A DNA stretch of 32,000 bases, from contig JANXZX010000098.1 of the NCBI GenBank assembly GCA_025355325.1, positions 1 to 32,000 of the forward strand. The letters are read 5' to 3'. Shown here piece by piece: positions 9,732 to 19,603 of the stretch. The DNA comes from Geobacteraceae bacterium (GTDB taxonomy: Bacteria > Desulfobacterota > Desulfuromonadia > Geobacterales > Pseudopelobacteraceae). The notes beneath the pieces were generated by a model. The model saw nothing but the letters and a program-made list of their open reading frames with translations. It did no database searches and was not told the DNA's origin. The position numbers were made by a program, and so were the translations under genes. The first letter of the stretch is position 1. Every line of letters starts with the position of its first letter.

Positions 9732-11015
9732 TTATCCCTGTTTCAGCCTGCGAGCCAGCAGTTGGAGCGTGTGTACAACTTCGACATCTGAACCGTGCTG
9801 TTTGAGGCCGTCTGAAAGCTGCATCATGCAGCCGGGGCAACCGGTTGCAACGGCCCTGGCTCCGGTGGCAACTATGGCCTCGCTCTTGGCATCGTTGATA
9901 TTCATGGACGAGTCATAGTGGTACACATTGAATGTCCCCCCCAGACCGCAACATTTATCAGCCCCGTCCATTTCGGACAGCTGGACACCTGGCGTCCCCT
10001 TCAGCAATTCGCGCGGCTGTTTTGTTATTCCGCGTGTACGCAGATGGCACGGATCGTGGTAGGTTATCTGTATCGGCTCACCGGCTCCAGTCTCGGTCGG
10101 ATCAAGCCCAAGCTGCTGTAAAAGCTGGGAGGCATCAACGGTTTTTTTGGCCAGCGCATCCAGCCGCTCCCGAAGCTCAGGGTTGCGCTTGCCAACTACC
10201 AGTGGATACAAACGATGGAGTGCGCCGCCACAGGTAGCGCAGGCGCTCATGACATAATCCACGTCAAATTTTTCAAATTCTTCCAGGTTCTTTTCGGCAA
10301 GATCACGAACAGTTGAGAGGTCCCCACCGGACATCCCGGGCAGTCCGCAGCACTGCTGGCCTTTGGGAATAATTATCGTACAGCCGAGGTGGCGAAACAG
10401 GGCCAACGCCGCCTCACCGACCTCCGTATAAACAAAATTGGTCATGCACCCTACAAAGAAGGCGATGCGCGGCTTGCCAGGTTCTCCCGGAATAACTTCC
10501 GGATGCTGATCAATAAAACTGTTTTTGGCAATTTCAGGGATAAAGCGGGTATTGCCGACAAACGGCATCGGGAAACGCAAACGGAGACCGGAGGTTTCAG
10601 GAACTTTCTTGAAAAACAGCGGGCCGAGCAGCGAGGCCATTTTGGCCCCCATTTTCATGCGGCTTCTGCTTTTTATCACTTGACCGACAGCAGCATGAAA
10701 TGTGGTCAGGCCACGTTTCTTTGCCAGTGATTCCCGGGCGGCGATGACAATCTCGTCGGTAGGCACATCGTTGGGACACTTTTCAACGCAGCTGCCGCAC
10801 AACAGACATTTTGACATGGCCAGATACGTCTGGTCATCCAGTTCAATATCATCCGCCAGAACATGCTGAGCCAGTGCCACCTTTCCACGAGCCACCGCCG
10901 GTTCACGCTGGAATGTCGCAAAGGCAGGGCAGTTGGTACGGCAGGCGCCACATTTAACACATTTTTTCAGTTGATCTTCAACCCGTTTGAGGGGATCGAT
11001 GGTAGTATCAGACAT
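9732..11015 (-). CDS. (Fe-S)-binding oxidoreductase subunit, GlcF/HdrD-like with two CCG domains
   Basis: It has two 4Fe-4S ferredoxin motifs (CVKCGACRTNCP, CLLCGSCVEKCP) and two cysteine-rich CCG motifs (CCGLPG, CCGLGG). Confidence 0.8.
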   Translation of the reverse strand: MSDTTIDPLKRVEDQLKKCVKCGACRTNCPAFATFQREPAVARGKVALAQHVLADDIELDDQTYLAMSKCLLCGSCVEKCPNDVPTDEIVIAARESLAKKRGLTTFHAAVGQVIKSRSRMKMGAKMASLLGPLFFKKVPETSGLRLRFPMPFVGNTRFIPEIAKNSFIDQHPEVIPGEPGKPRIAFFVGCMTNFVYTEVGEAALALFRHLGCTIIIPKGQQCCGLPGMSGGDLSTVRDLAEKNLEEFEKFDVDYVMSACATCGGALHRLYPLVVGKRNPELRERLDALAKKTVDASQLLQQLGLDPTETGAGEPIQITYHDPCHLRTRGITKQPRELLKGTPGVQLSEMDGADKCCGLGGTFNVYHYDSSMNINDAKSEAIVATGARAVATGCPGCMMQLSDGLKQHGSDVEVVHTLQLLARRLKQG

Positions 11016-11032
11016 AGTTTACATTCCTTCTT

Positions 11033-11165
11033 GAAACACTGAGCAACGGAGCAACAGAGAGAACAAACACTGACTTATAGTAAACAATCATGCGGGAGAT
11101 TTACAAGTTGTTTAATCGGTAAAATATCTTTAGATCTTCTCCGTTGCTCTGTTGCTCTGTGTTTT
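11033..11165. repeat. ORF-less copy of the GAGCAAC inverted-repeat pair (arms 11033-11063 and 11136-11165, ~72-bp interior)
   Basis: Arm C reads GAAACACTGAGCAACGGAGCAACAGAGAGAA. The reverse complement of arm D reads AAAACACAGAGCAACAGAGCAACGGAGAAG. This is the same repeat family and the same geometry as the arms flanking the GxxExxY gene. Confidence 0.8.
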
Positions 11166-12485
11166 AAATTGCAGTTTCCAATCGTCCAACGCCACCAATG
11201 CCCGCTCTGCCAACTTCTGCCGCCGTTCCTTCTTTTTTATTTTCCCCGCCAGTTCCGGGAAAAGTCCATAATTCACATTCATCGGCTGGAAATGCTTAAC
11301 ATCAGCATTGGTAATATGGTGCATCAAAGCGCCCAGAGCGGTTTCAGGAGGCGGCACCGGAATCGGCTCGCCCTGCACAAAACATACAGCAGCAATTCCC
11401 GCCAGAAAACCACTGGCAACCGACTCCACATACCCCTCCACCCCGGTAATCTGGCCGGCAAAGAAAATTCTCGGCTGGCTCTTCAACTGCTGCGTATCTT
11501 CAAGCAACGCCGGAGAATTGATAAACGTATTACGGTGCATCGACCCGAGCCGAACAAACTCGACATTTTCAAGCCCCGGAATCATCCTGAAAATTCGGCG
11601 CTGTTCAGGCCAGGTCAGCTTGGTCTGGAAACCGACCAGATTATACATGGTTTTTTCGCGGTTTTCGGCCCGCAACTGGATGACAGCGTGTGCCTCATAA
11701 CCGGTATTCGGATCAATCAACCCGACCGGCTTCATCGGCCCGAAACGAAGCGTTTCCACGCCGCGCGCCGCAAGCTCCTCAACCGGCATACACCCCTCGA
11801 AGTGAACGACCTTCTCAAAATCACGCGCAGGAACCTTCTCGCCGCGCAAAAGTTCATCGACAAAGCGCAGGTATTCATCTTCATTGAGCGGACAGTTAAG
11901 ATAGTCATCGCCATCTCCCTTACCGTAGCGCGAAGCGGCGAACACCTTCGTCATATCGAGAGAATCTGCTGCAACAATCGGAGCGATTGCATCATAAAAG
12001 TACAGCCGGTCACCGGTCAGGTCAGCCAGAGACAAGGCCAGAGCATCACTGGTAAGCGGTCCTGAAGCGATGACAACCGTCCCCTCAGCCGGAATGGCGG
12101 TTGATTCCGCCCGTTCAACCCGTATCAGCGGATGGGACTCAATTTTCCCGGTAACGTAATCGGAAAAAAGTTGTCGATCCACCGCCAGCGCACCGCCTGC
12201 CGGAACAGAGGTTGCTTCGGCCGCCTCCATCGCCAAAGAGCCACAGCGACGCAGCTCTTCTTTAAGCAGGCCCACGGCATTATCAAGCGAAATTCCGCGC
12301 AGGGAGTTGGAGCAGACCAGTTCCGCCAGGCCGGGAAGATGGTGGGCAGGTGAGAACCGCTGCGGTTTCATTTCATGGATAACAACCGAAACGCCGCGCT
12401 GCGCGGCCTGCCAGGCGGCTTCACAGCCAGCAAGGCCGCCGCCGATGATGGTAATTTGTTTCTGTGATTCTATGCTATTTGGCAA
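11130..12485 (-). CDS. trmFO: Methylenetetrahydrofolate--tRNA-(uracil-5-)-methyltransferase TrmFO (Gid)
   Basis: The FAD motif [18 protein letters not shown] is present and Gid/TrmFO-like sequence runs the full length. The start is TTG at 12485 with an AAGGAGA SD. The last ~12 codons ([11 protein letters not shown]) are encoded by repeat arm D. Confidence 0.9.
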
Positions 12486-12544
12486 AGGGCTCTCCTTGAA
12501 TTGTCATGCAACTCTGTATTAGATGATATTCCAATTTCAAATAG

Positions 12545-13054
12545 TTATTCTTCAAACAGAAGCCGCCTTAATCGTTCCAGTCCCTCTGCCGGAAGCCTTC
12601 TGCCGACGGTTGGCCAGACGGAAAGCCACTTCATAAGTTCTTTTGACTCAAGCAATTGTAAACGATGAGCTTCCTCTACAATCCAGAAACTGCCCCGGAA
12701 TGCTACTCCCTCCTCGGAACATCTTTCACGCAATGGTCGATCACCGGCAAGGACAGTATGACCATTCACCTTGGCATGACACAGCGTCATCATATCAATA
12801 GTGCTTACCCCACCCCGACGCATGCCAGTTGCCATGCTGGCCAGATCGCGTGTCGTTTCGACTACAGCAATCCCCGATTGTATTATGTTCTGCACCAAGC
12901 CCGGTTGACTTGCGTGTTCGCATTCATCCAGCACAACATCCAATATCTCGCATGGAGCAATTCGCGGTAATATAGCGATCCCGCCAACGTACTCAAGATC
13001 GATCAGAATACTGGTGTCGGCGAGGAGGATCAAGGCAGTTCCTCCGAAAGCCAT
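12545..13054 (-). CDS. PIN-like nuclease domain protein (putative toxin)
   Basis: Acidic residues follow PIN spacing: LLADTSILIDL, LDECEH, TIDMMTLCHAKVNGHTVLAGDRPL. The ATG at 13054 overlaps the upstream gene by 25 nt. An alternative TTG at 13033 follows GGAGGA by 6 nt and forms a TTGA overlap with the upstream stop. Confidence 0.6.
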   Translation of the reverse strand: MAFGGTALILLADTSILIDLEYVGGIAILPRIAPCEILDVVLDECEHASQPGLVQNIIQSGIAVVETTRDLASMATGMRRGGVSTIDMMTLCHAKVNGHTVLAGDRPLRERCSEEGVAFRGSFWIVEEAHRLQLLESKELMKWLSVWPTVGRRLPAEGLERLRRLLFEE

Positions 13055-14097
13055 TTATTGAGTTCTGTCCGGACGGTGTGGACCGGTTCTCCCAGAACTT
13101 CGGCGGCCTTGGAAGTGGTAATTTTCTCTTCAATCAGGGCCTGATACACCAGCCGGTCAAGTCGGCGAAGAGAATCAGGGGGAGTAAGGTTTATCGGCTC
13201 GTCTTCCTTGCCGTACTTCTCATTTATCTTGGCTATCTGCTGGAACGTCTGACGTGAAGAAATAATACCGAGTTGCCCCGCACGAACCAGAACCGTCCTC
13301 ATGCTTACAGAGTATCGGCGTTTGATGTCACCCAACAGAGAAAACGGCAGCCATCGGTTACGGTAGGGGTGCAGCTCGGCTTCGACCATGTTACGCGGTA
13401 GAAGCACCGCACCCGCCAGAAAATTAGCCGCCTGTTCCCGTGGATCCGTCTTTCCGGATTTCACAGTCGCCACTGCGGGAGCCTGATACTCCTTGCGATG
13501 AAAAATCAGATGGGAAAGCTCGTGGAGCGCCGTGAAATATTGCCGCTCCGTGCGATGATCCGCGTTGACGAAGATCGCTCCGCCGACCTCATCCGTGTAG
13601 GCCGAAAACCCGGAAACTGAGTTCGGCAGCTTTTGCAGAAATACTTTGATTCCCTTACCTTCCAGCAATGACAAAACATCACCAAGCGGGGCATCCTCGA
13701 CACCCAGCCAGTCACGCACCTCGTGTGCCACCTGTTCGACCATATGGGGATCGAATGTGGTTAATGGGCGGGATATCGGCAAATTCGGTAGAGCACCGGC
13801 CAGCTTCTCAATATCGGCGTAATCGCAGGCTTTACGGGTCAGCACTTTTTTAAGACCTGGCGATAACGACTCAGCAGCATCCGCCCGGAACAGCAACACC
13901 GGCTCAGCTTCATTATCCGTCCCGAGCATAACATCAATCGGTACATTCAGAATCCGGCACAGCTTGATGACTTGCTGCATTGAAGGCTCACGATCTCCGC
14001 GTTCCCAGGCAGCAATGGTTTGGCGCGTAACTCCAGCCTGTTCGCCCAGAGACTCCTGTCCTATGCCGGCCAGCTCTCTAACCTCGCGTAAAATCAT
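13030..14097 (-). CDS. XRE-type HTH fused to an ImmA/IrrE-family (COG2856, M78) zinc metallopeptidase
   Basis: The N-terminus is an HTH (LGEQAGVTRQTIAAWERGDREPSMQQVIKLCRILNV). The central region carries the peptidase HExxH motif (YFTALHELSHLIFH). An AAGGA SD lies upstream. Confidence 0.8.
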   Translation of the reverse strand: MILREVRELAGIGQESLGEQAGVTRQTIAAWERGDREPSMQQVIKLCRILNVPIDVMLGTDNEAEPVLLFRADAAESLSPGLKKVLTRKACDYADIEKLAGALPNLPISRPLTTFDPHMVEQVAHEVRDWLGVEDAPLGDVLSLLEGKGIKVFLQKLPNSVSGFSAYTDEVGGAIFVNADHRTERQYFTALHELSHLIFHRKEYQAPAVATVKSGKTDPREQAANFLAGAVLLPRNMVEAELHPYRNRWLPFSLLGDIKRRYSVSMRTVLVRAGQLGIISSRQTFQQIAKINEKYGKEDEPINLTPPDSLRRLDRLVYQALIEEKITTSKAAEVLGEPVHTVRTELNKWLSEELP

Positions 14098-14147
14098 GGG
14101 AGATTCCTTTCTTCCTACTGATCAAATAAGTAAGGGCATTGCATAGC

Positions 14148-14211
14148 ATGTTATATTTATGTAACATTACTTGCATAAAATTGATAATTTTACAACAGCT
14201 AAATGTTACAT
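14148..14211. promoter_or_regulatory. AT-rich promoter/operator region with repeated ATGTTA(C/T)AT motifs upstream of the HTH-ImmA gene
   Basis: ATGTTA (14148-14153) and TAACAT (14162-14167) form an inverted pair, and ATGTTACAT recurs at 14203-14211. They lie 50-115 nt upstream of the ATG at 14097 in the most AT-rich stretch of the window. Confidence 0.3.
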
Positions 14212-14255
14212 TACAAATATTGCTTTCAATCAAGCCACATTCGAACACAACAACG

Positions 14256-14278
14256 AAAAAACCCGGCTTTAAGCCGGG
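14256..14278 (-). terminator. Rho-independent terminator after the HipS-HIRAN gene
   Basis: The stem CCCGGC/GCCGGG (14262-14267/14273-14278) has a 5-nt loop and is followed on the minus strand by a 6-nt U run (14256-14261). It lies 31 nt past the stop at 14310. Confidence 0.75.
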
Positions 14279-14309
14279 CGGCGCTTGGTATATGACTCGA
14301 CAAAAAATC

Positions 14310-15068
14310 TCAGGCGGCAATTGCCAACAATGGCTGAAATTCCGGCGCAGACATCGGTTCATAACTAACAGCCCAGCGGCCTTTGATCTCAATTAGCACC
14401 CGTTGTTTGGATGGTGCAGGTGTAGGGTTCACCTTTACCACAGTAGCCCTGATATCGTTCGGTGATTCACAGATTGCTTGGAACAGGTCTTTAACAAGGT
14501 ATCTGGGTGTCCAGCCGATCATGTGATAGTCGTCAGGTGTCTCCAGCTGAACCGCCAGAACCGTTACCGGGTTATTCAGTTCGATTGCTACCCGCAAATG
14601 CTCACCACTTTGCAATTTCATAAGCCTCTCTTGCGCCGCTGCGTTTACATGCCGCCATCCGTGCAGAAAGAATTTGCAAGCGAACTCCCCATTCTTGCGC
14701 CGTACAGTCTTCGGAAAAACTTCCAGATTATCAGTTTGCCTCTCTCCGCCAGTTAGAGCCAAAATTTCCAGCGGACTGGCATGTTGGGGGTCAAGACCCA
14801 ATTGCTGAATGTAATCCTTAAAATCTTCGCGCCCCTCACCCAGAATTCGGTTACGAAACAGCGGGAAAAGTTCCGATGATTTGTAAATCTTGTGGAAATC
14901 AGGAAATGCGTCAAGCGGCTCCAGCCCCGCACGCTGTCTCGCTATTTCTGCGCCTTGAGTATATTTGAATTCAAAACGTGATCTTGCAATAACGGCATCC
15001 AGACGCCCAATAGGATACCATGCCCGTGTATTCGCTTTATCCTGCCATGCTACAAATAGTGTTTTCAC
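14310..15068 (-). CDS. HipS-like (HipA N-subdomain-like) / HIRAN domain fusion protein, putative antitoxin or sensor partner of the kinase
   Basis: The N-terminal ~120 aa fit the HipA N-terminal pattern (YPIGRL..FEFKY..LFPLFRNRILGEG..LEILALTGGERQTDNLEV). The C-terminal ~110 aa fit HIRAN (LQSGEHLRVAIELNNPVTVLAVQLE..MIGWTPRYL..ATVVKVN). The start is GTG, with a GAGG SD overlapping the kinase stop. Confidence 0.65.
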   Translation of the reverse strand: MKTLFVAWQDKANTRAWYPIGRLDAVIARSRFEFKYTQGAEIARQRAGLEPLDAFPDFHKIYKSSELFPLFRNRILGEGREDFKDYIQQLGLDPQHASPLEILALTGGERQTDNLEVFPKTVRRKNGEFACKFFLHGWRHVNAAAQERLMKLQSGEHLRVAIELNNPVTVLAVQLETPDDYHMIGWTPRYLVKDLFQAICESPNDIRATVVKVNPTPAPSKQRVLIEIKGRWAVSYEPMSAPEFQPLLAIAA

Positions 15069-15077
15069 AGTTGAACC

Positions 15078-15962
15078 TCATTCAATCTTTTCCTGGTAGT
15101 TGCCAACATGTGACAACAGAACCTCTTTCGCGGATGCATCCATCCATTTTACGGGAATACGCTCCACTATGCCAACGATTTCTTCTTCACCCACATGCCT
15201 GAGAAGTTGCAAACAGTGGGAAAAATATTTGGGAAATGACTTGGCTGTTTTCTGAGCCAGCAACAAAGGATTGTCTCTGTCTGTATCAGCTGCATCCCAG
15301 TAAATCCCACCCCGCCCACGCAAAACATAGCGTTCAATGCCGTCTCGCTCAAGGAGTATCCTTTTTCGTTTTTCGTCTCGCAATTCCCGACCCAGCGAAG
15401 AAGCATGGTCAAAAGATGGCGCAATTGAATGCATGGTTTTACCTCGGGAAATCCAACGCAGAAGTCCCCAGTTGTCATGATGGCGGTCGGTGTTGCAAAT
15501 CAATGCATCAAGAACAATGTAGCCGGCTAATATGCGGAGCTGCCCTGACCGCTTGTTCTGCGGGAAGACCCGTTCAACCGCTGTAATGATGTTTTTTATA
15601 CAGTGGTCGCTTTGGCCCCATTGTTTTGACTTCTCATAGTCCGTTATACGCCCTGCCAACACCTCGCTGCCATGAATAAGCTCAAAACCTTTCTTTGTCT
15701 CAACGAACGAGCGGGACGCGCATCCTCGTTGGCCCATGAAGGTTGCCAACTCAACCTGTGCGGCGGGTATTTTCAGAAGCCTCGCCAGCTCCGAAGCAAT
15801 TTTCTCCGACCAATCTTCGCCGGTGTTTTCTCTGGTGAATTTGAACAACCATGGCTGAGTGTCACCTTGCAAACGAAACCAGAACTTTGGTTTGCTGCCG
15901 AGTTGTTCAATGACCTCGGGGCTGTCTGATTGGAGTTCAAGGATTTTGAAAGGTTCAGTCAT
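15078..15962 (-). CDS. HipA-family Ser/Thr kinase, core kinase domain only (putative toxin)
   Basis: HipA_C hallmarks are present: LGSKPKFW, the catalytic loop CNTDRHHDNWG, and APSFDHASSLG. I prefer the ATG at 15962 (MTEPFKIL), because the in-frame upstream ATG at 16064 lies inside the predicted promoter just after the topA terminator. Confidence 0.8.
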   Translation of the reverse strand: MTEPFKILELQSDSPEVIEQLGSKPKFWFRLQGDTQPWLFKFTRENTGEDWSEKIASELARLLKIPAAQVELATFMGQRGCASRSFVETKKGFELIHGSEVLAGRITDYEKSKQWGQSDHCIKNIITAVERVFPQNKRSGQLRILAGYIVLDALICNTDRHHDNWGLLRWISRGKTMHSIAPSFDHASSLGRELRDEKRKRILLERDGIERYVLRGRGGIYWDAADTDRDNPLLLAQKTAKSFPKYFSHCLQLLRHVGEEEIVGIVERIPVKWMDASAKEVLLSHVGNYQEKIE

Positions 15963-16040
15963 GGTAAATTTTCCTGCATCTATGATTGGCCTACCGTCTT
16001 CGTCCCCAAAATCGGATCTGACTCTCAATTTTTTTGGCAG

Positions 16041-16068
16041 ATTATACGCAGGCCAAGCACGCATGCAA
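16041..16068 (-). promoter_or_regulatory. Candidate sigma70 promoter of the kinase/HipS-HIRAN operon
   Basis: The minus strand reads TTGCAT(16068-16063)-16 nt-TATAAT(16046-16041), with a perfect -10. It lies 5 nt after the topA terminator and about 80 nt upstream of the ATG at 15962. Confidence 0.55.
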
Positions 16069-16073
16069 GCAAG

Positions 16074-16099
16074 AAAAAAGGCGGGGGTTTCTCCCCGCC
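16074..16099 (-). terminator. Rho-independent terminator of topA
   Basis: The stem GGCGGGG/CCCCGCC (16080-16086/16093-16099) is followed on the minus strand by a 6-nt U run (16074-16079). It lies 45 nt past the topA stop. Confidence 0.8.
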
Positions 16100-16143
16100 T
16101 TTAAAGCGATCTTAACGCCAGAAGGCTGTTGTCGATACTATCT

Positions 16144-18447
16144 TCACTCGCTGGTATAATCACAGCCCTCTTTGGGACACTTCAAAAACTCACCCTTGCG
16201 TTTGTAGATCTTTTTGACCAAGAGCGGGAAACCGCATTTCGGGCAGGGGCTTTCCACCGGCAGATCCCACAGGGCAAACTTGCACTGAGGATATTTATTA
16301 CAGGAGTAGAATAACTTGCCAAAGCGGGATTTTTTCTCGATGAGCTGTCCTTCCTTGCACTCCGGACAGACCACGCCGGTATTCAGCGGCTTGACCAGAG
16401 GCTGGATATTCTTGCAGGCCGGATAGCCGGAGCAGGCCAGATATTTGCCAAAGCGGCCATCCTTGATCAGCATCGGCAAACCGCATTTCTCACATTTTTC
16501 ATCCGAGATGACCGGTTCGGCTACCTCGCCACCCTCCTGATCGACGTTGCGGGTATATTTGCACCCTTCCTGGAAACCGGAGCAAGCGATAAATTTACCG
16601 CGTTTTCCGAGCTTCACAACCAGCGGCTTGCCGCATTCAGGGCAGAGCTCATCAGTTGCCTCCGTCGTCAGGTCAGCCTTATTAACCTCGCCTTCCTTCT
16701 GTTTCAGCAGGGTAATAAACGGCTCCCAGAACTCCTTCAGAAGCGGCCGCCACTCTTTTTCGCCACGGGAAACCTGATCCAGCTCTTCTTCCAGAGCGGC
16801 GGTAAAGTTGTAGTCTACGTATTTCTGGAAATGAGCCGTCAGCAGATCACTGACCACCATGCCGACGTCTTCCGGGAAGAAGCGTTTCTTGTCGAGACGG
16901 GCATACTTCCTCTCCACCAGCGTGTTCATGATCGAAGCAAAGGTTGACGGGCGGCCAATACCGTACTCTTCCAGCGTCTTGACCAGCGTTGCTTCGGTGT
17001 AGCGGGGCGGCGGCTGAGTAAAGTGCTGCTCGGGCAAAACTTCATGCAGCTTGAGCGAAGCTCCTTCTTTCATGGACGGCAGCAGCCCTTCTTTTTCTTC
17101 GTCCTGATCATCGAGCCCTTCAATATACAACTTCATAAAACCGGGAAACCGGATGACCGTTCCGGCGGCGCGCAGCCCCGCCTTGCGTGAACCGGCAAAC
17201 GGGCCGGCTGCAGGGGGCACAGCCAGATCAGCAATAATATCGACCGAGGTCTGGTCCAGGAGCGCTTCAGCCATCTGGCAGGCAACGGTTCGCTTCCAGA
17301 TCAGTTCATACAGTTTATACAGGTCAGGCGTCAGGAACTTCTTTAATTCTACAGGGGTCTTGGCGATATAGGTTGGCCGGACCGCCTCATGAGCTTCCTG
17401 AGCATTTTTGGATTTGGTTTTGAAAATCCGTGGTTTGGCGAGCGCATATTCCTTGCCGTACGCGGCAGAGATAACGTCATGGGCGTCTTTCAATGCCAAC
17501 GTGGAAAGGTTGACACTGTCGGTACGCATATAGGTGATCAGGCCGACTGTTCCTTCGTCACCAATATCAATACCTTCATAGAGTTTCTGCGCCGTTGACA
17601 TCGTCTTTTTGGCCGAAAAGCCAAGCTTGCGCGAGGCCTCCTGCTGTAACGTAGAGGTGGTGAACGGAGGTGACGGATTGCGTTTTTTCTCCGTTTTGGT
17701 GATTTTGGCAACCTGGTAACTACCTGACTGCAACGCAGCTTTCAGAGCGGTCGCAATGTCCTCACCGGGAATGTCGAACTTGCCGAGTTTTTTACCCCCC
17801 ACATCGACCAGACCGGCCTTGAACTCCTGACCGGCGGAGACCCCGAGACGGGCCGCAATGGTCCAGTATTCCTGTTCGTTAAAGGCGAGAATTTCCTTTT
17901 CACGCTCACAGACGAGACGCAACGCCACCGACTGGACACGACCGGCGGAAAGCCCGTAGCGGATCTTTTTCCAGAGGAACGGCGAGAGATTGAAGCCGAC
18001 CAGATAATCAAGAATTGAGCGGGCCTGTTGGGCGTTTACCAGATCAAGGGCAATATCGCGGGGATTTTTGACGGCATGCAGAATCGCCTCTTTGGTGATC
18101 TCGTGAAACTCGACCCGCTGGATTTTGATGCCCGGGTTCTTTTTATCGAGACCAAGGGCCGCCAGCAGATGCCAGGAGATCGCTTCTCCTTCGCGGTCGG
18201 GGTCAGTTGCCAGCAACAGTCTATCCGCCCCCTTGAGCGCCGCTTTGATGGCATCGAGATGTTTTTTGCTTTCCGGCAACACGTGGTACTTGGGTTCAAA
18301 ACCCTTTTCAATATCCACTGAACCCTGCTTGCTCGGAAGAGCGCGGACATGCCCGAATGAAGCCAGAACTTTAAAATCAGGCCCCAGAAATTTTTCTATG
18401 GTTTTCCCCTTGGCAGGAGATTCGACGATAACGAGATTATGTGACAT
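16144..18447 (-). CDS. topA: DNA topoisomerase I
   Basis: It opens with a Toprim N-terminus (LVIVESPAKGKTIEKFLG) and carries the type IA core with the active-site region GLITYMRTDS. Four C-terminal Cys4 zinc-ribbon repeats are present (CPECG...C..C type). Confidence 0.95.
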   Translation of the reverse strand: MSHNLVIVESPAKGKTIEKFLGPDFKVLASFGHVRALPSKQGSVDIEKGFEPKYHVLPESKKHLDAIKAALKGADRLLLATDPDREGEAISWHLLAALGLDKKNPGIKIQRVEFHEITKEAILHAVKNPRDIALDLVNAQQARSILDYLVGFNLSPFLWKKIRYGLSAGRVQSVALRLVCEREKEILAFNEQEYWTIAARLGVSAGQEFKAGLVDVGGKKLGKFDIPGEDIATALKAALQSGSYQVAKITKTEKKRNPSPPFTTSTLQQEASRKLGFSAKKTMSTAQKLYEGIDIGDEGTVGLITYMRTDSVNLSTLALKDAHDVISAAYGKEYALAKPRIFKTKSKNAQEAHEAVRPTYIAKTPVELKKFLTPDLYKLYELIWKRTVACQMAEALLDQTSVDIIADLAVPPAAGPFAGSRKAGLRAAGTVIRFPGFMKLYIEGLDDQDEEKEGLLPSMKEGASLKLHEVLPEQHFTQPPPRYTEATLVKTLEEYGIGRPSTFASIMNTLVERKYARLDKKRFFPEDVGMVVSDLLTAHFQKYVDYNFTAALEEELDQVSRGEKEWRPLLKEFWEPFITLLKQKEGEVNKADLTTEATDELCPECGKPLVVKLGKRGKFIACSGFQEGCKYTRNVDQEGGEVAEPVISDEKCEKCGLPMLIKDGRFGKYLACSGYPACKNIQPLVKPLNTGVVCPECKEGQLIEKKSRFGKLFYSCNKYPQCKFALWDLPVESPCPKCGFPLLVKKIYKRKGEFLKCPKEGCDYTSE

Positions 18448-18461
18448 ATGTAGTAGATTCC

Positions 18462-19556
18462 TTATCCAGTAACAGCATAGTGTGTGCCGGGTAGCGGCGT
18501 AACCGCCCCCTTGAGTTCAAGGTGCAGTAACATAGAGGAAACCTCACCGGCTGTCAATTCAGTTTGGGAGATGAGGTCATCAATGTGCAGTGGCGAGCGT
18601 GCCAACAGTTCATAAATTGCTGCTTCTTTCGGGGTCAGCGCAAAGGTTCGCGCAGGTGGCGCAAACAACGGAGCATCAGCAGAAGCACGGGCATACTCCG
18701 GGAGTTCTTCCAGAATATCTTCAACGCAATCAACGAGCTTTGCCCCCTGTTTGATCAGACGATTGCAGCCCCGGCTGGTGGCAAAGGAAATATTTCCCGG
18801 TACGGCAAAGACGTCACGCCCCTGCTCCAGAGCATACTGGGCGGTGATCAGTGAACCGCTTTTTTCAGCGGCCTCGACAACCAGCACACCACTGGACAGC
18901 CCGCTGATAATCCGGTTGCGCCGGGGAAAATTTTCGGCCAACGGCTGGGTTCCGAGTGGAAATTCCGACAGCAGACACCCCTTCACCGCCATTTCCTCGA
19001 AGAGGGCACGATTTTCCGGCGGATAAACCGTGTCTACGCCACATCCCAACACGCCGAGACTTCTTCCTCCTGCCCGTAGTGCTGCTTTATGAGCTGCGGT
19101 ATCAACACCACGCGCCATACCCGACACGACACAAACCCCGTGACTTGCAAGTGCCTCAGCCAGATTCCCGGTGGTCATAATTCCGTACGATGTCGCCCGG
19201 CGCGAACCGACGATCGCAATTGACAGCTCACAGGAACGCAGCTCCCCCTTAACGTACAGAAACGGCGGCGGATCGGGAATTTCAAACAGAGACTTAGGAT
19301 AGTCGCACGAAGTATATGTCACCAGCCGCGCCGCGCTTGCCTCCAACCGGCGGCACTCCTCCTCCGCAAAACGCCGCCATTCACCACTTTTTATGGCATC
19401 AATCACCACAGGAGTTATCCCCCTGATACCGGCAAGTGAAGCGGGTGACGCATTCAACGCAGTTTCCGGCGTATCGAAACGTTCCAGAAGGCGCCGGAAC
19501 GAAACATTGCCGATTCCGGGAACCGCTTTGAGACCTATCCAGAAAAACTCATCCAT
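18462..19556 (-). CDS. dprA: DNA-processing protein DprA (Smf)
   Basis: The DprA Rossmann-like core is present (IAIVGSRRATSYG, SGMARGVDTAAH, AVPGNI) with a C-terminal winged-helix-like tail. I prefer the ATG at 19556 (MDEFF), because the track start at 19595 lies inside the upstream terminator hairpin. Confidence 0.9.
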   Translation of the reverse strand: MDEFFWIGLKAVPGIGNVSFRRLLERFDTPETALNASPASLAGIRGITPVVIDAIKSGEWRRFAEEECRRLEASAARLVTYTSCDYPKSLFEIPDPPPFLYVKGELRSCELSIAIVGSRRATSYGIMTTGNLAEALASHGVCVVSGMARGVDTAAHKAALRAGGRSLGVLGCGVDTVYPPENRALFEEMAVKGCLLSEFPLGTQPLAENFPRRNRIISGLSSGVLVVEAAEKSGSLITAQYALEQGRDVFAVPGNISFATSRGCNRLIKQGAKLVDCVEDILEELPEYARASADAPLFAPPARTFALTPKEAAIYELLARSPLHIDDLISQTELTAGEVSSMLLHLELKGAVTPLPGTHYAVTG

Positions 19557-19579
19557 TATAATACCTGCAACACTCCAAT

Positions 19580-19603
19580 AAAAAAGACCGGCCAAAGCCG
19601 GTC
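19580..19603 (-). terminator. Rho-independent terminator after the LysM gene
   Basis: The stem GACCGGC/GCCGGTC (19586-19592/19597-19603) has a 4-nt loop and is followed on the minus strand by a 6-nt U run (19580-19585). Confidence 0.75.

What the first reader, a model, noticed from the sequence alone, without database searches (positions are those of the whole stretch)
12486..16073. About 3.6 kb two-operon defence/TA island inserted between topA and trmFO, with no mobility genes
The order dprA-topA-trmFO(gid) is a widely conserved arrangement; the classic example is smf-topA-gid in Bacillus. Here dprA and topA are contiguous, but four accessory genes sit between the topA terminator (16074-16099) and the trmFO start (12485).

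Both modules pair a DNA-status-sensing element (HIRAN, or an ImmA/IrrE-type protease-repressor) with a growth-arresting effector (kinase or PIN nuclease). The inter-operon spacer (14098-14255) is the most AT-rich stretch of the window. I could find no integrase, transposase, tRNA or flanking direct repeats.

The co-localisation may reflect a defence hotspot. It may also reflect a functionally linked four-gene system in which the HTH-ImmA protein controls both effectors. To my knowledge that four-gene combination is not a described system.
Basis: partly seen in the sequence, partly recalled or inferred. Interest (0 to 1): 0.65.

Follow-up and report, generated by a model that had tools for sequence, protein, structure and literature searches.

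The report
Two stacked toxin-antitoxin cassettes, defence hotspot
Between two housekeeping genes of a Geobacter-like bacterium sit two separate, already-described kinds of two-gene toxin-antitoxin or phage-defence cassettes, at a spot where related genomes hold other defence genes or nothing, so this is an ordinary defence hotspot and not a new four-gene system.

Summary
Four minus-strand accessory genes lie between topA and trmFO. These two genes are directly adjacent in 16 of 23 same-genus genomes and in six more distant relatives.

The "four-gene system" reading does not hold. The segment is two independent cassettes.

- **Cassette 1 (15962-14310):** a short HipA-core kinase plus a HIRAN-domain partner. 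This is the hipIN module of Gerdes 2021 and PADLOC candidate PDC-M03. The two genes are adjacent in 71 of 80 loci.
- **Cassette 2 (14097-12545):** an HTH-M78 repressor-protease (RmrA-like) translationally coupled to a PIN nuclease. This is the COG2856-Xre+PIN pairing predicted in 2009 and is RosmerTA-like. The two genes are paired in 50 of 54 loci.

The cassettes co-occur in only 1 of 80 hipIN loci and 0 of 54 PIN loci. They have separate promoters, a terminator lies between them, and they differ in nucleotide history.

In relatives the same site carries type I, IIG or III restriction systems, another M78+PIN pair, hipIN alone or M78-PIN alone. No mobility genes were found.

hipIN is often embedded in type I restriction operons, and a 36-nt hsdS relic survives here.

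Verdict: new members of known kinds in a core-gene defence hotspot. Interest is low to moderate.

The parts
16144..18447 (-). topA (DNA topoisomerase I), the conserved left flank
   Evidence: Pfam Topoisom_bac 9e-122, plus Toprim and zinc ribbons. Orthologues at 90-95% identity lie next to trmFO in 16 congeners.
16077..16102 (-). Intrinsic terminator of topA
   Evidence: A 10-bp stem with 7 GC pairs followed by a T-run. It is conserved in G002, G021 and L127.
16041..16068 (-). Promoter-like TTGCAT-16 nt-TATAAT that belongs to the conserved flank and probably drives hipIN here
   Evidence: Read from the sequence. The same stretch follows the topA terminator in G002 (homology to window 16027) and G021, which both lack hipIN. 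Its function is inferred.
15980..16015 (-). Relic of the 3' end of a type I restriction specificity gene (hsdS); left edge of the hipIN homology block
   Evidence: It translates to PILGTKTVGQS*. It aligns to the end of the intact hsdS that overlaps hipI in L039 (...EAMILGTKKIDLP...) and to the hsdS remnant in L038. The nucleotide homology block with L038 and L039 starts at 16013.
15078..15962 (-). hipI: short HipA-core Ser/Thr kinase (294 aa), the presumed toxin
14310..15068 (-). hipN: N-terminal (HipS-like) domain plus C-terminal HIRAN domain (252 aa), the presumed antitoxin and DNA sensor
   Evidence: PADLOC PDC-M03B 2.3e-80. Pfam HIRAN scores 18.1 bits, below the cut-off. The AlphaFold model (pLDDT 79) has a C-terminal domain that matches the HLTF HIRAN structures 4s0n, 4xzg and 5bnh at probability 1.0. 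A GTG start lies 9 nt after the hipI stop. The kinase is adjacent in 71 of 80 loci.
14261..14279 (-). Intrinsic terminator ending the hipIN operon
   Evidence: An 8-bp stem with 6 GC pairs followed by T6. It lies in the stretch 14213-14304, which has no homology to either cassette's relatives.
14148..14216 (-). Promoter-like site (14216-14187) with repeated ATGTWACAT operator candidates (14148-14156, 14159-14167, 14203-14211) upstream of the HTH-M78 gene
   Evidence: Promoter-like match. Exact motif copies in the window occur only here. The same TAACAT/ATGTTA motifs flank a TTGTCAA box upstream of M78 homologues down to about 50% identity.
13030..14097 (-). HTH (Xre) plus M78/ImmA-IrrE zinc-peptidase fusion (355 aa), an RmrA-like repressor and presumed antitoxin
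   Evidence: Pfam Peptidase_M78 7.8e-20 and HTH_3 2.1e-15. PADLOC RmrA 6.5e-39. The HEXXH motif (HELSH) is intact in the translation. NCBIfam spr1629 antitoxin scores 106 bits, below the 335 cut-off.
12545..13033 (-). PIN-like nuclease (162 aa from the TTG; 169 aa from the upstream ATG at 13054), the presumed toxin
   Evidence: GGAGG lies 7 nt before a TTG that overlaps the M78 TGA stop. A 162-aa product with PF11848 is called on an independent contig. The AlphaFold model (pLDDT 89) matches VapC-type PIN toxins at probability 1.0. D13, E44, D87 and D105 are invariant in 20 homologues. The M78 gene lies directly upstream in 50 of 54 loci.
11130..12485 (-). trmFO, the conserved right flank (TTG start, AAGGAG ribosome-binding site)
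   Evidence: Pfam GIDA 7e-97. A 59-nt gap follows the PIN stop with no terminator hit between them, so read-through from the M78-PIN operon is possible. That is inferred.

Best explanation
**What it is**
The 3.6-kb interval is a composite of two independent, self-contained two-gene toxin-antitoxin-type cassettes. They are stacked in a variable defence-gene hotspot between the core genes topA and trmFO of a Geobacteraceae genome.

**Cassette 1: hipIN**
- HipI is a short HipA-core Ser/Thr kinase with all catalytic motifs intact (shown).
- By analogy with HipA and HipT, it probably phosphorylates an essential translation factor such as an aminoacyl-tRNA synthetase and arrests growth (inferred).
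- HipN, encoded 9 nt downstream, would hold the kinase inactive through its N-terminal HipS-like domain (inferred).
- HipN's C-terminal HIRAN domain (fold shown) would bind DNA 3' ends or single-stranded DNA. This could serve autoregulation, or it could sense phage DNA or replication intermediates and release the kinase (inferred; proposed in Gerdes 2021).
- This cassette descends from an arrangement embedded in a type I restriction operon (hsdS-hipI-hipN-hsdR). A 36-nt hsdS relic still precedes hipI (shown).

**Cassette 2: HTH-M78 plus PIN**
- An Xre-HTH/M78 zinc-peptidase fusion (RmrA-like) probably represses its own promoter through the ATGTWACAT repeats and neutralises the PIN nuclease, to which it is translationally coupled (inferred).
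- A trigger such as phage infection or DNA damage would inactivate or cleave the repressor, as with ImmA/ImmR, IrrE/DdrO or CapP/CapH. That would free the PIN nuclease to cut RNA and stop growth (inferred).

**How the hotspot works**
- The two cassettes have separate promoters, a terminator lies between them, and they have different evolutionary histories.
- Their adjacency results from cassette gain, loss and decay at a hotspot.
- Because there are no mobility genes, exchange probably occurs by homologous recombination through the flanking core genes (inferred).
For: **Module identities**
- Pfam and PADLOC matches.
- HIRAN fold for HipN and PIN fold for the nuclease.
- Conserved kinase motifs and conserved PIN acidic residues.

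**Pairing within each module**
- Kinase next to HipN in 71 of 80 loci.
- M78 next to PIN in 50 of 54 loci.

**Independence between the modules**
- M78 is found in 1 of 80 HipN loci, and hipIN in 0 of 54 PIN loci.
- HipN is in 0 of 40 relatives and the PIN in 4 of 40.
- The nucleotide homology blocks are separate: 16013-14305 and 14212-12500, with a unique junction that holds the terminator.
- L039 has hsdS-hipIN-trmFO without M78-PIN.
- L127, L117 and L118 have M78-PIN-trmFO without hipIN.
- The operator motif is confined to the M78 promoter.
- M78-PIN has no conserved third neighbour among 100 neighbouring ORFs.

**Hotspot**
- The site is empty in 16 of 23 congeners, and the cargo varies in the others.

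**Descent from a type I restriction operon**
- HsdR lies directly after hipN in 20 loci, and HsdS lies before hipI in 7.
- The hsdS relic is present in the window.

**Literature**
- hipIN (PMC8262856).
- PADLOC candidates derived by guilt-by-embedding (bioRxiv 10.1101/2024.01.29.577857).
- COG2856-Xre with PIN (PMC2701414).
- The ImmA/Rosmer node associated with PIN-like domains (PMC10440598).
Against: - No experiment exists for either family in this form. hipIN and PDC-M03 are only candidates, and the PIN protein matches no PADLOC RmrT model.
- The HipS-likeness of the HipN N-terminal domain could not be shown here. The hhalign comparison against HipS of E. coli O127 gave probability 4.8%.
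- One related genome (L037) again has hipIN followed by M78 and a PIN stump, at a different chromosomal site (yajQ-like gene to rimO). Some linkage by descent or by shared preference cannot be excluded. There, however, the 646-nt spacer is unrelated and carries a gene fragment.
- Most relatives are draft MAGs. For four congeners the site runs into a contig end.
Confidence: 0.8

Rival explanations
1. This is a single integrated four-gene system. The HTH-M78 repressor-protease senses DNA status and controls both effectors, the HipI kinase and the PIN nuclease.
For: - All four genes are co-oriented and contiguous.
- hipIN followed by an M78 gene and a PIN stump recurs in one other Geobacteraceae genome at a different chromosomal location (L037).
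- Fused COG2856-Xre proteins have been proposed to regulate other genes as well (PMC2701414).
Against: - Co-occurrence is 1 of 80 from the hipIN side and 0 of 54 from the PIN side.
- HipN is absent from all four relatives that carry the PIN.
- An intrinsic terminator and a separate promoter lie between the operons.
- The conserved operator motif is absent from the hipI promoter.
- The hipI promoter belongs to the conserved topA flank and is also present in genomes without hipIN.
- In L037 the spacer is unrelated and holds a gene relic, and the PIN is truncated to 33 codons.
- Close relatives carry each module alone at this very site (L039, L127).
Confidence: 0.05
2. The composition is the same (two independent toxin-antitoxin cassettes), but neither defends against phage. 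They are selfish addiction modules or decaying remnants that persist in a recombination-tolerant intergenic site. hipIN in particular would be an orphan left after loss of its type I restriction partner.
For: - The hsdS relic shows that the restriction genes were lost.
- Relics are common at this site: a PIN stump in G002, hsdM fragments in G004, and a PIN stump in L037.
- No experimental defence phenotype is reported for hipIN or PDC-M03 in the papers found.
- Toxin-antitoxin modules can persist as selfish elements (PMC2701414).
Against: - All four reading frames are intact, with catalytic motifs conserved.
- Cargo at the site in relatives is overwhelmingly restriction or defence genes.
- RosmerTA systems with RmrA-type antitoxins have validated anti-phage activity (PMC10440598).
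- hipIN is enriched inside type I restriction operons, the criterion used to nominate defence candidates.
Confidence: 0.15
3. The four-gene adjacency is an assembly or binning artefact of a draft MAG: a chimeric join between two contigs.
For: - The genome is a 241-contig draft.
- The junction 14213-14304 has no homologue in any fetched relative.
Against: - An independently assembled Logan contig from run SRR23617163, seen in 3 samples, is 100% identical over window 11610-16378 and so spans topA, all four genes and trmFO.
- A second contig covers 14273-16306 at 99.8% identity.
Confidence: 0.01

Closest known systems
hipIN module (HipI kinase + HipN, HipS-like-HIRAN), Gerdes et al. 2021, mBio (PMC8262856); the same pair is PADLOC candidate PDC-M03
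   Same: - The kinase is a short HipA-core type. At 294 aa it falls in the 279-321 aa range given for HipG/I/J/M, and all core motifs are present.
- The downstream gene has a C-terminal HIRAN domain.
- The gene order is kinase then partner, tightly coupled.
- PADLOC matches are strong: PDC-M03A 8e-85 and PDC-M03B 2e-80.
   Different: - No direct comparison with the paper's own sequences was possible.
- The HipS-likeness of the N-terminal domain was not demonstrable here.
- This copy sits next to an hsdS relic. The frequent embedding in type I restriction operons is not mentioned in that paper.
HipBST of E. coli O127 (HipT kinase, HipS antitoxin, HipB repressor)
   Same: The Hip kinase is split: the N-terminal subdomain is encoded as a separate protein that is thought to neutralise the kinase. 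The catalytic-loop region aligns between the two kinases.
   Different: - There is no HipB-type HTH gene here, and a HIRAN domain is fused to the HipS-like part instead.
- The gene order is reversed (kinase first).
- Sequence similarity is very low (BLASTP E 0.003 over 40 residues; hhalign to HipS probability 4.8%).
- The kinase target is unknown here; it is TrpS for HipT.
RosmerTA (RmrT/RmrA) anti-phage toxin-antitoxin systems
   Same: The antitoxin-type protein has an N-terminal HTH and an M78/ImmA zinc peptidase (PADLOC RmrA 6.5e-39). It forms a two-gene operon with a variable toxin. An association of the ImmA/Rosmer node with PIN-like toxins is noted in PMC10440598.
   Different: - The PIN protein matches no PADLOC RmrT model, so PADLOC rules would leave RmrA as an orphan.
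- The toxin is a PIN/DUF3368 nuclease, unlike the validated Gordonia phage Kita RmrT, which depolarises the membrane (PMC10440598).
- No phenotype is known for this subfamily.
Fused COG2856-Xre protein in an operon with a PIN or RelE toxin (the predicted 'three-component' toxin-antitoxin system of Makarova, Wolf and Koonin 2009, PMC2701414)
   Same: The architecture is exactly this: an Xre HTH fused to a COG2856/M78 protease, followed by a PIN toxin in the same operon.
   Different: This is only a prediction in the literature. Whether the fusion acts as the antitoxin, as a protease of another repressor, or as both is unresolved.
VapBC (PIN toxin with an RHH, AbrB or Phd antitoxin)
   Same: The PIN fold has four conserved acidic residues. 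The top structural matches are VapC toxins. The toxin gene overlaps the upstream partner gene.
   Different: - The partner is a 355-aa HTH-M78 fusion, not a small VapB.
- The Pfam PIN score is below the gathering cut-off.
- The protein has a roughly 40-residue C-terminal helical extension, and its homologues are filed under PF11848 (DUF3368).
PrrC anticodon nuclease embedded in the EcoprrI type I restriction locus, and other 'embedded' defence genes (Payne et al. 2024, bioRxiv 10.1101/2024.01.29.577857)
   Same: hipIN homologues often sit between hsdS and hsdR of type I restriction operons. The window copy keeps an hsdS relic.
   Different: In this window the restriction genes are gone. No functional coupling between hipIN and a restriction enzyme has been shown.
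Core-genome defence hotspots (variable defence cargo between conserved core genes)
   Same: The flanks are conserved core genes that are adjacent in most relatives. Cargo is strain-specific and mostly restriction or toxin-antitoxin genes. Relics of earlier cargo are present.
   Different: This particular site (topA-trmFO in Geobacteraceae) is not, to my knowledge, described. No integrase or repeats were seen in any of the filled variants that were fully readable (the window, G002, G004, L117, L127).

Membership tests
hipIN (Gerdes 2021) / PADLOC PDC-M03 | Short HipA-core kinase that lacks N-subdomain 1 and keeps the conserved Gly-rich loop, catalytic motif and Mg-binding motif | tested here: met
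   The kinase is 294 aa. Pfam HipA_C scores 44.3 bits against a 30.5 cut-off, and PDC-M03A scores 8e-85. GSKxKFW, DRHHxN and FDH are at least 90% conserved in 57 homologues.
hipIN (Gerdes 2021) / PADLOC PDC-M03 | The partner protein has a C-terminal HIRAN domain | tested here: met
   The model's C-terminal domain matches HLTF HIRAN structures at probability 1.0, with target-normalised TM-scores of 0.5-0.75. PDC-M03B scores 2.3e-80. Pfam HIRAN alone is below its cut-off, at 18.1 against 24.7 bits.
hipIN (Gerdes 2021) / PADLOC PDC-M03 | [quoted passage not shown] | tested here: inconclusive
   hhalign of the HipN profile against HipS of E. coli O127 gave probability 4.8% and E 0.0084 over 42 columns. 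A PDB profile search found no Hip protein. The paper places HipN's HipS-like domains on a branch distinct from HipS.
hipIN (Gerdes 2021) / PADLOC PDC-M03 | A conserved bicistronic arrangement with the kinase gene first | tested here: met
   The kinase lies directly upstream of HipN in 71 of 80 loci. The window has a 9-nt gap.
hipIN (Gerdes 2021) / PADLOC PDC-M03 | Kinase toxicity neutralised by the partner; anti-phage activity | not testable with these tools
   This needs expression and phage assays. None was found in the literature searched.
RosmerTA (RmrT/RmrA) | RmrA: an HTH plus M78/ImmA zinc-peptidase protein | tested here: met
   PADLOC RmrA models score down to 6.5e-39. Pfam Peptidase_M78 scores 7.8e-20 and HTH_3 2.1e-15. 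HELSH (the HEXXH motif) is present.
RosmerTA (RmrT/RmrA) | The partner belongs to a recognised RmrT toxin family | tested here: not met
   The PIN protein hits only PDC-S70 (1.3e-05) in PADLOC and no RmrT model. I therefore file it as RosmerTA-like, not as a member.
NCBIfam spr1629 repressor/antitoxin (NF052239) | Score at or above the curated equivalog cut-off | tested here: not met
   It scores 106.4 bits against a cut-off of 335.
COG2856-Xre fusion + PIN operon (Makarova 2009) | A fused Xre-HTH/COG2856 protein in the same operon as a PIN-domain protein, conserved as a pair | tested here: met
   The genes overlap by 4 nt (TTGA) in the window. The pair is conserved in 50 of 54 loci down to 36% PIN identity.
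PIN-domain nuclease (VapC-like) | The PIN fold with the conserved acidic active-site residues | tested here: met
   The model has pLDDT 89, and its top Foldseek hits are PIN and VapC structures at probability 1.0. D13, E44, D87 and D105 are invariant. Pfam PIN scores 20.7 against 23.6 bits, below the cut-off.
Core-gene defence hotspot | The flanking core genes are adjacent in most relatives, and cargo at the same site is variable and defence-rich in the others | tested here: met
   The site is empty in 16 of 23 congeners. Cargo elsewhere includes type IIG, type I and type III restriction systems, another RmrA+PIN pair, hipIN alone and M78-PIN alone.
Integrative mobile element (genomic island with integrase) | An integrase or transposase, a tRNA or att-type direct repeats at the borders | tested here: not met
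   There is no tRNA and no flanking repeats above chance. No recombinase domain appears among the four proteins or the cargo proteins scanned.

The most novel reading that the evidence does not exclude
hipIN may be a restriction-linked guard, like PrrC. In its native setting, between hsdS and hsdR, the HIRAN domain of HipN would monitor DNA ends or the state of the type I restriction complex. It would release the HipI kinase when phage DNA escapes or inhibits restriction.

The copy in this window has lost its restriction partner. It would then act autonomously on phage DNA ends, with the M78-PIN pair as an unrelated resident module.

A weaker variant concerns the other cassette. HTH-M78+PIN pairs appear in two unrelated versions at the trmFO-proximal edge of this site. 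They may be preferred residents that stabilise the hotspot or provide its recombination boundary.
Probability: 0.12. Interest if true: 0.55.

Novelty: new member of a known kind. Interest (0 to 1): 0.28.

Why it matters
**Value for annotation**
- A tempting "new four-gene system" resolves into two known cassette types. This prevents a false system from entering catalogues.
- It adds a mobility-gene-free defence hotspot (topA-trmFO) for Geobacteraceae, a group used in bioremediation and electromicrobiology whose phage defences are little studied.

**A modest lead**
- hipIN (PDC-M03) is still untested experimentally.
- Its frequent position between hsdS and hsdR, together with its HIRAN domain, suggests a testable link between restriction, DNA-end sensing and a translation-arresting kinase.

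**The M78-PIN family**
- The family is small and found mainly in Geobacter-like genomes. It is a clean candidate for testing how fused repressor-protease antitoxins gate a nuclease.

Tried and rejected
**Tests that went against the four-gene idea**
- **Co-occurrence.** I searched from both sides, and the four-gene system was rejected.
- **Cross-regulation.** I looked for the M78 operator motif ATGTWACAT at the hipI promoter. It occurs only in the M78 promoter; the other hits in the window have 1 mismatch and are at chance level.
- **Third partner for M78-PIN.** Among 100 neighbouring ORFs no family occurs in more than 4, so there is no conserved third partner.

**Tests that found nothing**
- **Mobile-element signatures.** I checked for a tRNA, direct or inverted repeats and a recombinase. 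None was found.
- **Known RNA elements.** An Rfam search of 11000-17000 at E up to 0.1 gave no hit.

**Tests that were inconclusive or blocked**
- **HipS-likeness of the HipN N-terminal domain.** The hhalign comparison with HipS of E. coli O127 and the PDB profile search were inconclusive.
- **Apparent hipI 3' frameshift.** Relative to L037-L039 the window has a 1-nt difference near the 3' end. The window's C-terminal tail aligns to the end of the protein in more distant homologues, so the window frame is probably the ancestral one. I do not treat it as a defect.
- **Read-level confirmation of the junction.** I replaced it with an exact-protein look-up, which returned an independent identical contig.
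- **G012.** More than 19 kb of metabolic genes lie upstream of its trmFO. I treated this as a rearrangement and did not pursue it.

Full report
**1. What is in the sequence**

All genes of the region lie on the minus strand:

| Gene | Coordinates | Evidence |
|---|---|---|
| dprA | 18462-19595 | Pfam |
| topA | 16144-18447 | Pfam |
| HipA_C kinase | ORF 15078-16064 | Pfam 2.1e-11, above the cut-off |
| HIRAN-like protein | 14310-15068 | Pfam HIRAN 18.1 bits, below the cut-off |
| HTH_3 + Peptidase_M78 fusion | 13030-14097 | Pfam 2.1e-15 and 7.8e-20 |
| PIN-like protein | 12545-13054 | Pfam PIN 20.7 bits, just below the cut-off |
| trmFO | 11130-12485 | Pfam GIDA |

- Terminator-like hairpins follow topA (16102-16077) and the HIRAN gene (14279-14261).
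- The spacer before the M78 gene contains the lowest-GC 158-nt stretch of the window, 14103-14260 at GC 0.29.
- There is no tRNA, there are no flanking repeats beyond 12-16-nt chance matches, no recombinase domain and no Rfam hit.

Two gene starts need revision.
- The kinase most likely starts at the ATG at 15962, giving 294 aa. The longer ORF begins inside the promoter and terminator region.
- The PIN most likely starts at the TTG at 13033, giving 162 aa. GGAGG lies 7 nt upstream, and the TTG overlaps the M78 TGA stop.
- An independent gene call on a Logan contig gives exactly these 294-aa and 162-aa products.
- That contig, seen in 3 samples, is 100% identical to window 11610-16378, so the four-gene adjacency is not an assembly artefact.

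**2. It is an insertion into a conserved arrangement**

I searched 40 relatives with TrmFO and mapped the window's proteins onto the fetched loci.
- topA sits directly upstream of trmFO in 16 of the 23 same-genus species representatives with a locus. The gaps are about 30-190 nt, with one of 546 nt.
- It is also adjacent in 6 of 6 fetched same-order genomes, with gaps of about 0.5 kb.
- HipN is found in none of the 40 relatives, and the PIN in four.

**3. The site is a defence hotspot**

The seven congeners without direct topA-trmFO adjacency, and metagenome contigs from close relatives, carry the following at this site:

| Genome or locus | Cargo at the site |
|---|---|
| G002 | 4.8 kb: a 1111-aa type IIG restriction-methylase, an unknown 228-aa protein, and a relic of the last third of this same PIN gene (72% identity) abutting trmFO |
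| G004, and G024 up to its contig end | hsdM N-terminal fragments, then a different HTH-M78 (23% identity; RmrA 2e-11) with a different PIN protein |
| L117/L118 (trmFO 90% identical) | HD/dGTPase-like protein, DarG-C-like protein, type III mod and res, then M78-PIN (94% and 83%), then trmFO |
| L127 (topA 77% identical) | Only M78-PIN between topA and trmFO |
| L039 (uncultured Geobacter) | An intact hsdS overlapping hipI, then hipN, then trmFO, with no M78-PIN |
| G001, G006 | Other genes (a PD-(D/E)xK-like ORF; a Bro-N-like ORF) before the contig ends |
| G005 | The contig ends 454 nt upstream of trmFO and nothing could be identified |
| G012 | Rearranged |

None of the fully readable variants shows an integrase.

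**4. The two cassettes are independent**

*From the hipIN side.* A scan of genome contigs with a HipN alignment gave 80 loci.
- The kinase lies directly upstream in 71.
- An M78 homologue appears in only one, L037.

*From the PIN side.* A metagenome scan gave 54 loci.
- The M78 gene lies directly upstream in 50. The four exceptions are truncated contigs or fragments.
- hipI and hipN appear in none.

*Nucleotide homology* falls into two blocks.
- Block 1 is 16013-14305 (hipIN; 81-83% to L037-L039).
- Block 2 is 14212-12500 (M78-PIN; contiguous with trmFO in L117).
- Between them, 14213-14304 is unique and holds the terminator.

*The M78 promoter region* carries ATGTAACAT and ATGTTACAT repeats around a TTGTAA/TAAAAT promoter-like site.
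- The same motifs flank the promoter of M78 homologues down to about 50% identity.
- In the window, exact copies occur only there and not upstream of hipI.

*The hipI promoter-like site* (TTGCAT-16-TATAAT, 16068-16041) belongs to the conserved topA flank. It is present in G002 and G021, which lack hipIN.

*Neighbours.* Among 100 neighbouring ORFs of M78-PIN loci, no family recurs more than four times.

*The one exception, L037.* It has hipIN, then an unrelated 646-nt spacer carrying a gene fragment, then M78 (81%), then only the first 33 codons of the PIN. It lies between a yajQ-like gene and rimO. This is a second juxtaposition in a close relative. It is weak evidence for linkage by descent or by shared site preference, and it is not evidence for a system.

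**5. What each cassette is**

*hipI/hipN.*
- They match PADLOC's candidate PDC-M03A (8e-85) and PDC-M03B (2e-80).
- The architecture is the hipIN module of Gerdes et al. 2021 (PMC8262856). [quoted passage not shown] The authors proposed that the HIRAN domain senses DNA ends of invading phage.
- Kinase motifs are conserved in 57 homologues. The nearest solved relative by sequence is the HipA-fold kinase CtkA.
- The HipN model (pLDDT 79) has a C-terminal domain that matches HLTF HIRAN structures at probability 1.0.
- HipS-likeness of the N-terminal domain could not be confirmed.

*HTH-M78/PIN.*
- The M78 fusion matches PADLOC RmrA (6.5e-39), the antitoxin of RosmerTA systems. It falls below the NCBIfam spr1629 cut-off.
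- The PIN model (pLDDT 89) matches VapC-type PIN toxins. D13, E44, D87 and D105 are invariant.
- The PIN matches no RmrT model.
- Fused COG2856-Xre proteins in operons with PIN toxins were predicted in 2009 (PMC2701414). The ImmA/Rosmer node's association with PIN-like domains was noted in 2023 (PMC10440598).

**6. An extra finding: hipIN comes from type I restriction operons**

- In the 80 HipN loci, the gene directly after hipN is an HsdR in 20 cases.
- The gene before hipI is an HsdS in 7 cases.
- In L039, hsdS overlaps hipI.
- The window retains about 36 nt of the hsdS 3' end just upstream of hipI (16015-15980, PILGTKTVGQS*), as do L037 and L038.
- PADLOC's PDC candidates were nominated precisely because they are embedded in type I restriction, BREX or DISARM operons (bioRxiv 10.1101/2024.01.29.577857), so this is consistent with known work. 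The Gerdes paper does not mention it.

**7. Mechanism (inferred unless stated otherwise)**

*Cassette 1.*
- HipI phosphorylates an essential translation component and arrests growth.
- HipN holds it inactive through its N-terminal domain.
- HIRAN binding to DNA 3' ends or single-stranded DNA either autoregulates the operon or triggers release of the kinase during infection.

*Cassette 2.*
- HTH-M78 represses its own promoter at the ATGTWACAT repeats and neutralises the PIN.
- A trigger causes proteolytic inactivation of the repressor, as for ImmA/ImmR, IrrE/DdrO or CapP/CapH.
- The PIN then cleaves RNA.

*What is shown.* The shown elements are the domain identities and folds, the conserved catalytic residues, the gene coupling, the pairwise conservation, the independence of the two pairs, and the hotspot.

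**8. Verdict**

The "hotspot" reading is supported, and the "linked four-gene system" reading is not.
- Each cassette is a new member of a known or previously predicted kind.
- The earlier first-reader notes on the same stretch (e1-3761633, e1-3761634, e1-3761636) agree with what I found.
- A follow-up on a homologous M78-PIN cassette in another genome (e1-3152983) pointed me to the 2009 prediction, which I then read.

Noticed in passing
window 15980-16015; loci L039 166-1575, L047 10778-13957 and about 19 others: hipIN homologues are frequently embedded in type I restriction operons. HsdR lies directly downstream of hipN in 20 loci, and HsdS lies directly upstream of hipI in 7. The window, L037 and L038 keep a short relic of the hsdS 3' end before hipI. 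The Gerdes 2021 paper on hipIN does not mention restriction genes.
   Followed up: partly
G004 = L032 16738-18434; G024 = L034 3424-4751; compare window 12545-14097: A second, unrelated HTH-M78 (23% identity) plus a different PIN-domain protein occupies the same position and orientation immediately upstream of trmFO in two congeners. Two non-homologous versions of one architecture therefore sit at one site. This could be chance in a hotspot or a preference of such modules for this edge.
   Followed up: partly
G002 = L031 16733-16891: A relic of the last third of this PIN gene (residues 99-151, 72% identity, one internal stop) abuts trmFO, behind a type IIG restriction-methylase. The M78-PIN cassette was once there and was overwritten.
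   Followed up: yes
window 15078-15140, compared with L037, L038 and L039: A 1-nt indel difference near the 3' end of hipI changes the last 17 or so codons. It also changes whether hipI overlaps the hipN start (GTGA or ATGA overlap in L037-L039; a 9-nt gap in the window). The window's tail aligns with more distant homologues, so it is probably the older state.
   Followed up: partly
G021 = L016 958-1504: An otherwise empty site has a 546-nt topA-trmFO spacer. It shares the window's terminator and TATAAT box, and contains G/C-run inverted repeats (CCCCCCCTTTTGTAAAGGGGGG-type). It could be a small repeat element or a scar of lost cargo.
   Followed up: no
L117 571-6716: In a close relative from a metagenome, the cargo at the same site is an HD/dGTPase-like protein, a 201-aa protein resembling the DarG C-terminal antitoxin domain, and a type III restriction-modification pair, all upstream of M78-PIN.
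   Followed up: partly
window 12486-12544: Only 59 nt and no terminator-like hairpin separate the PIN stop from the trmFO start. The housekeeping gene trmFO may be partly transcribed by read-through from the M78-PIN operon in this genome.
   Followed up: no
PHROGs hits for window 15078-15962 and 14310-15068: Both the kinase (phrog_8728, 3e-49) and HipN (phrog_8026, 7e-47) have phage or prophage protein families of unknown function. hipIN-like pairs are therefore also carried by viruses.
   Followed up: no
window 11033-11165: An earlier first-reader note (e1-3761638) reports a GAGCAAC-arm inverted-repeat element at the 3' end of trmFO. I did not examine it.
   Followed up: no
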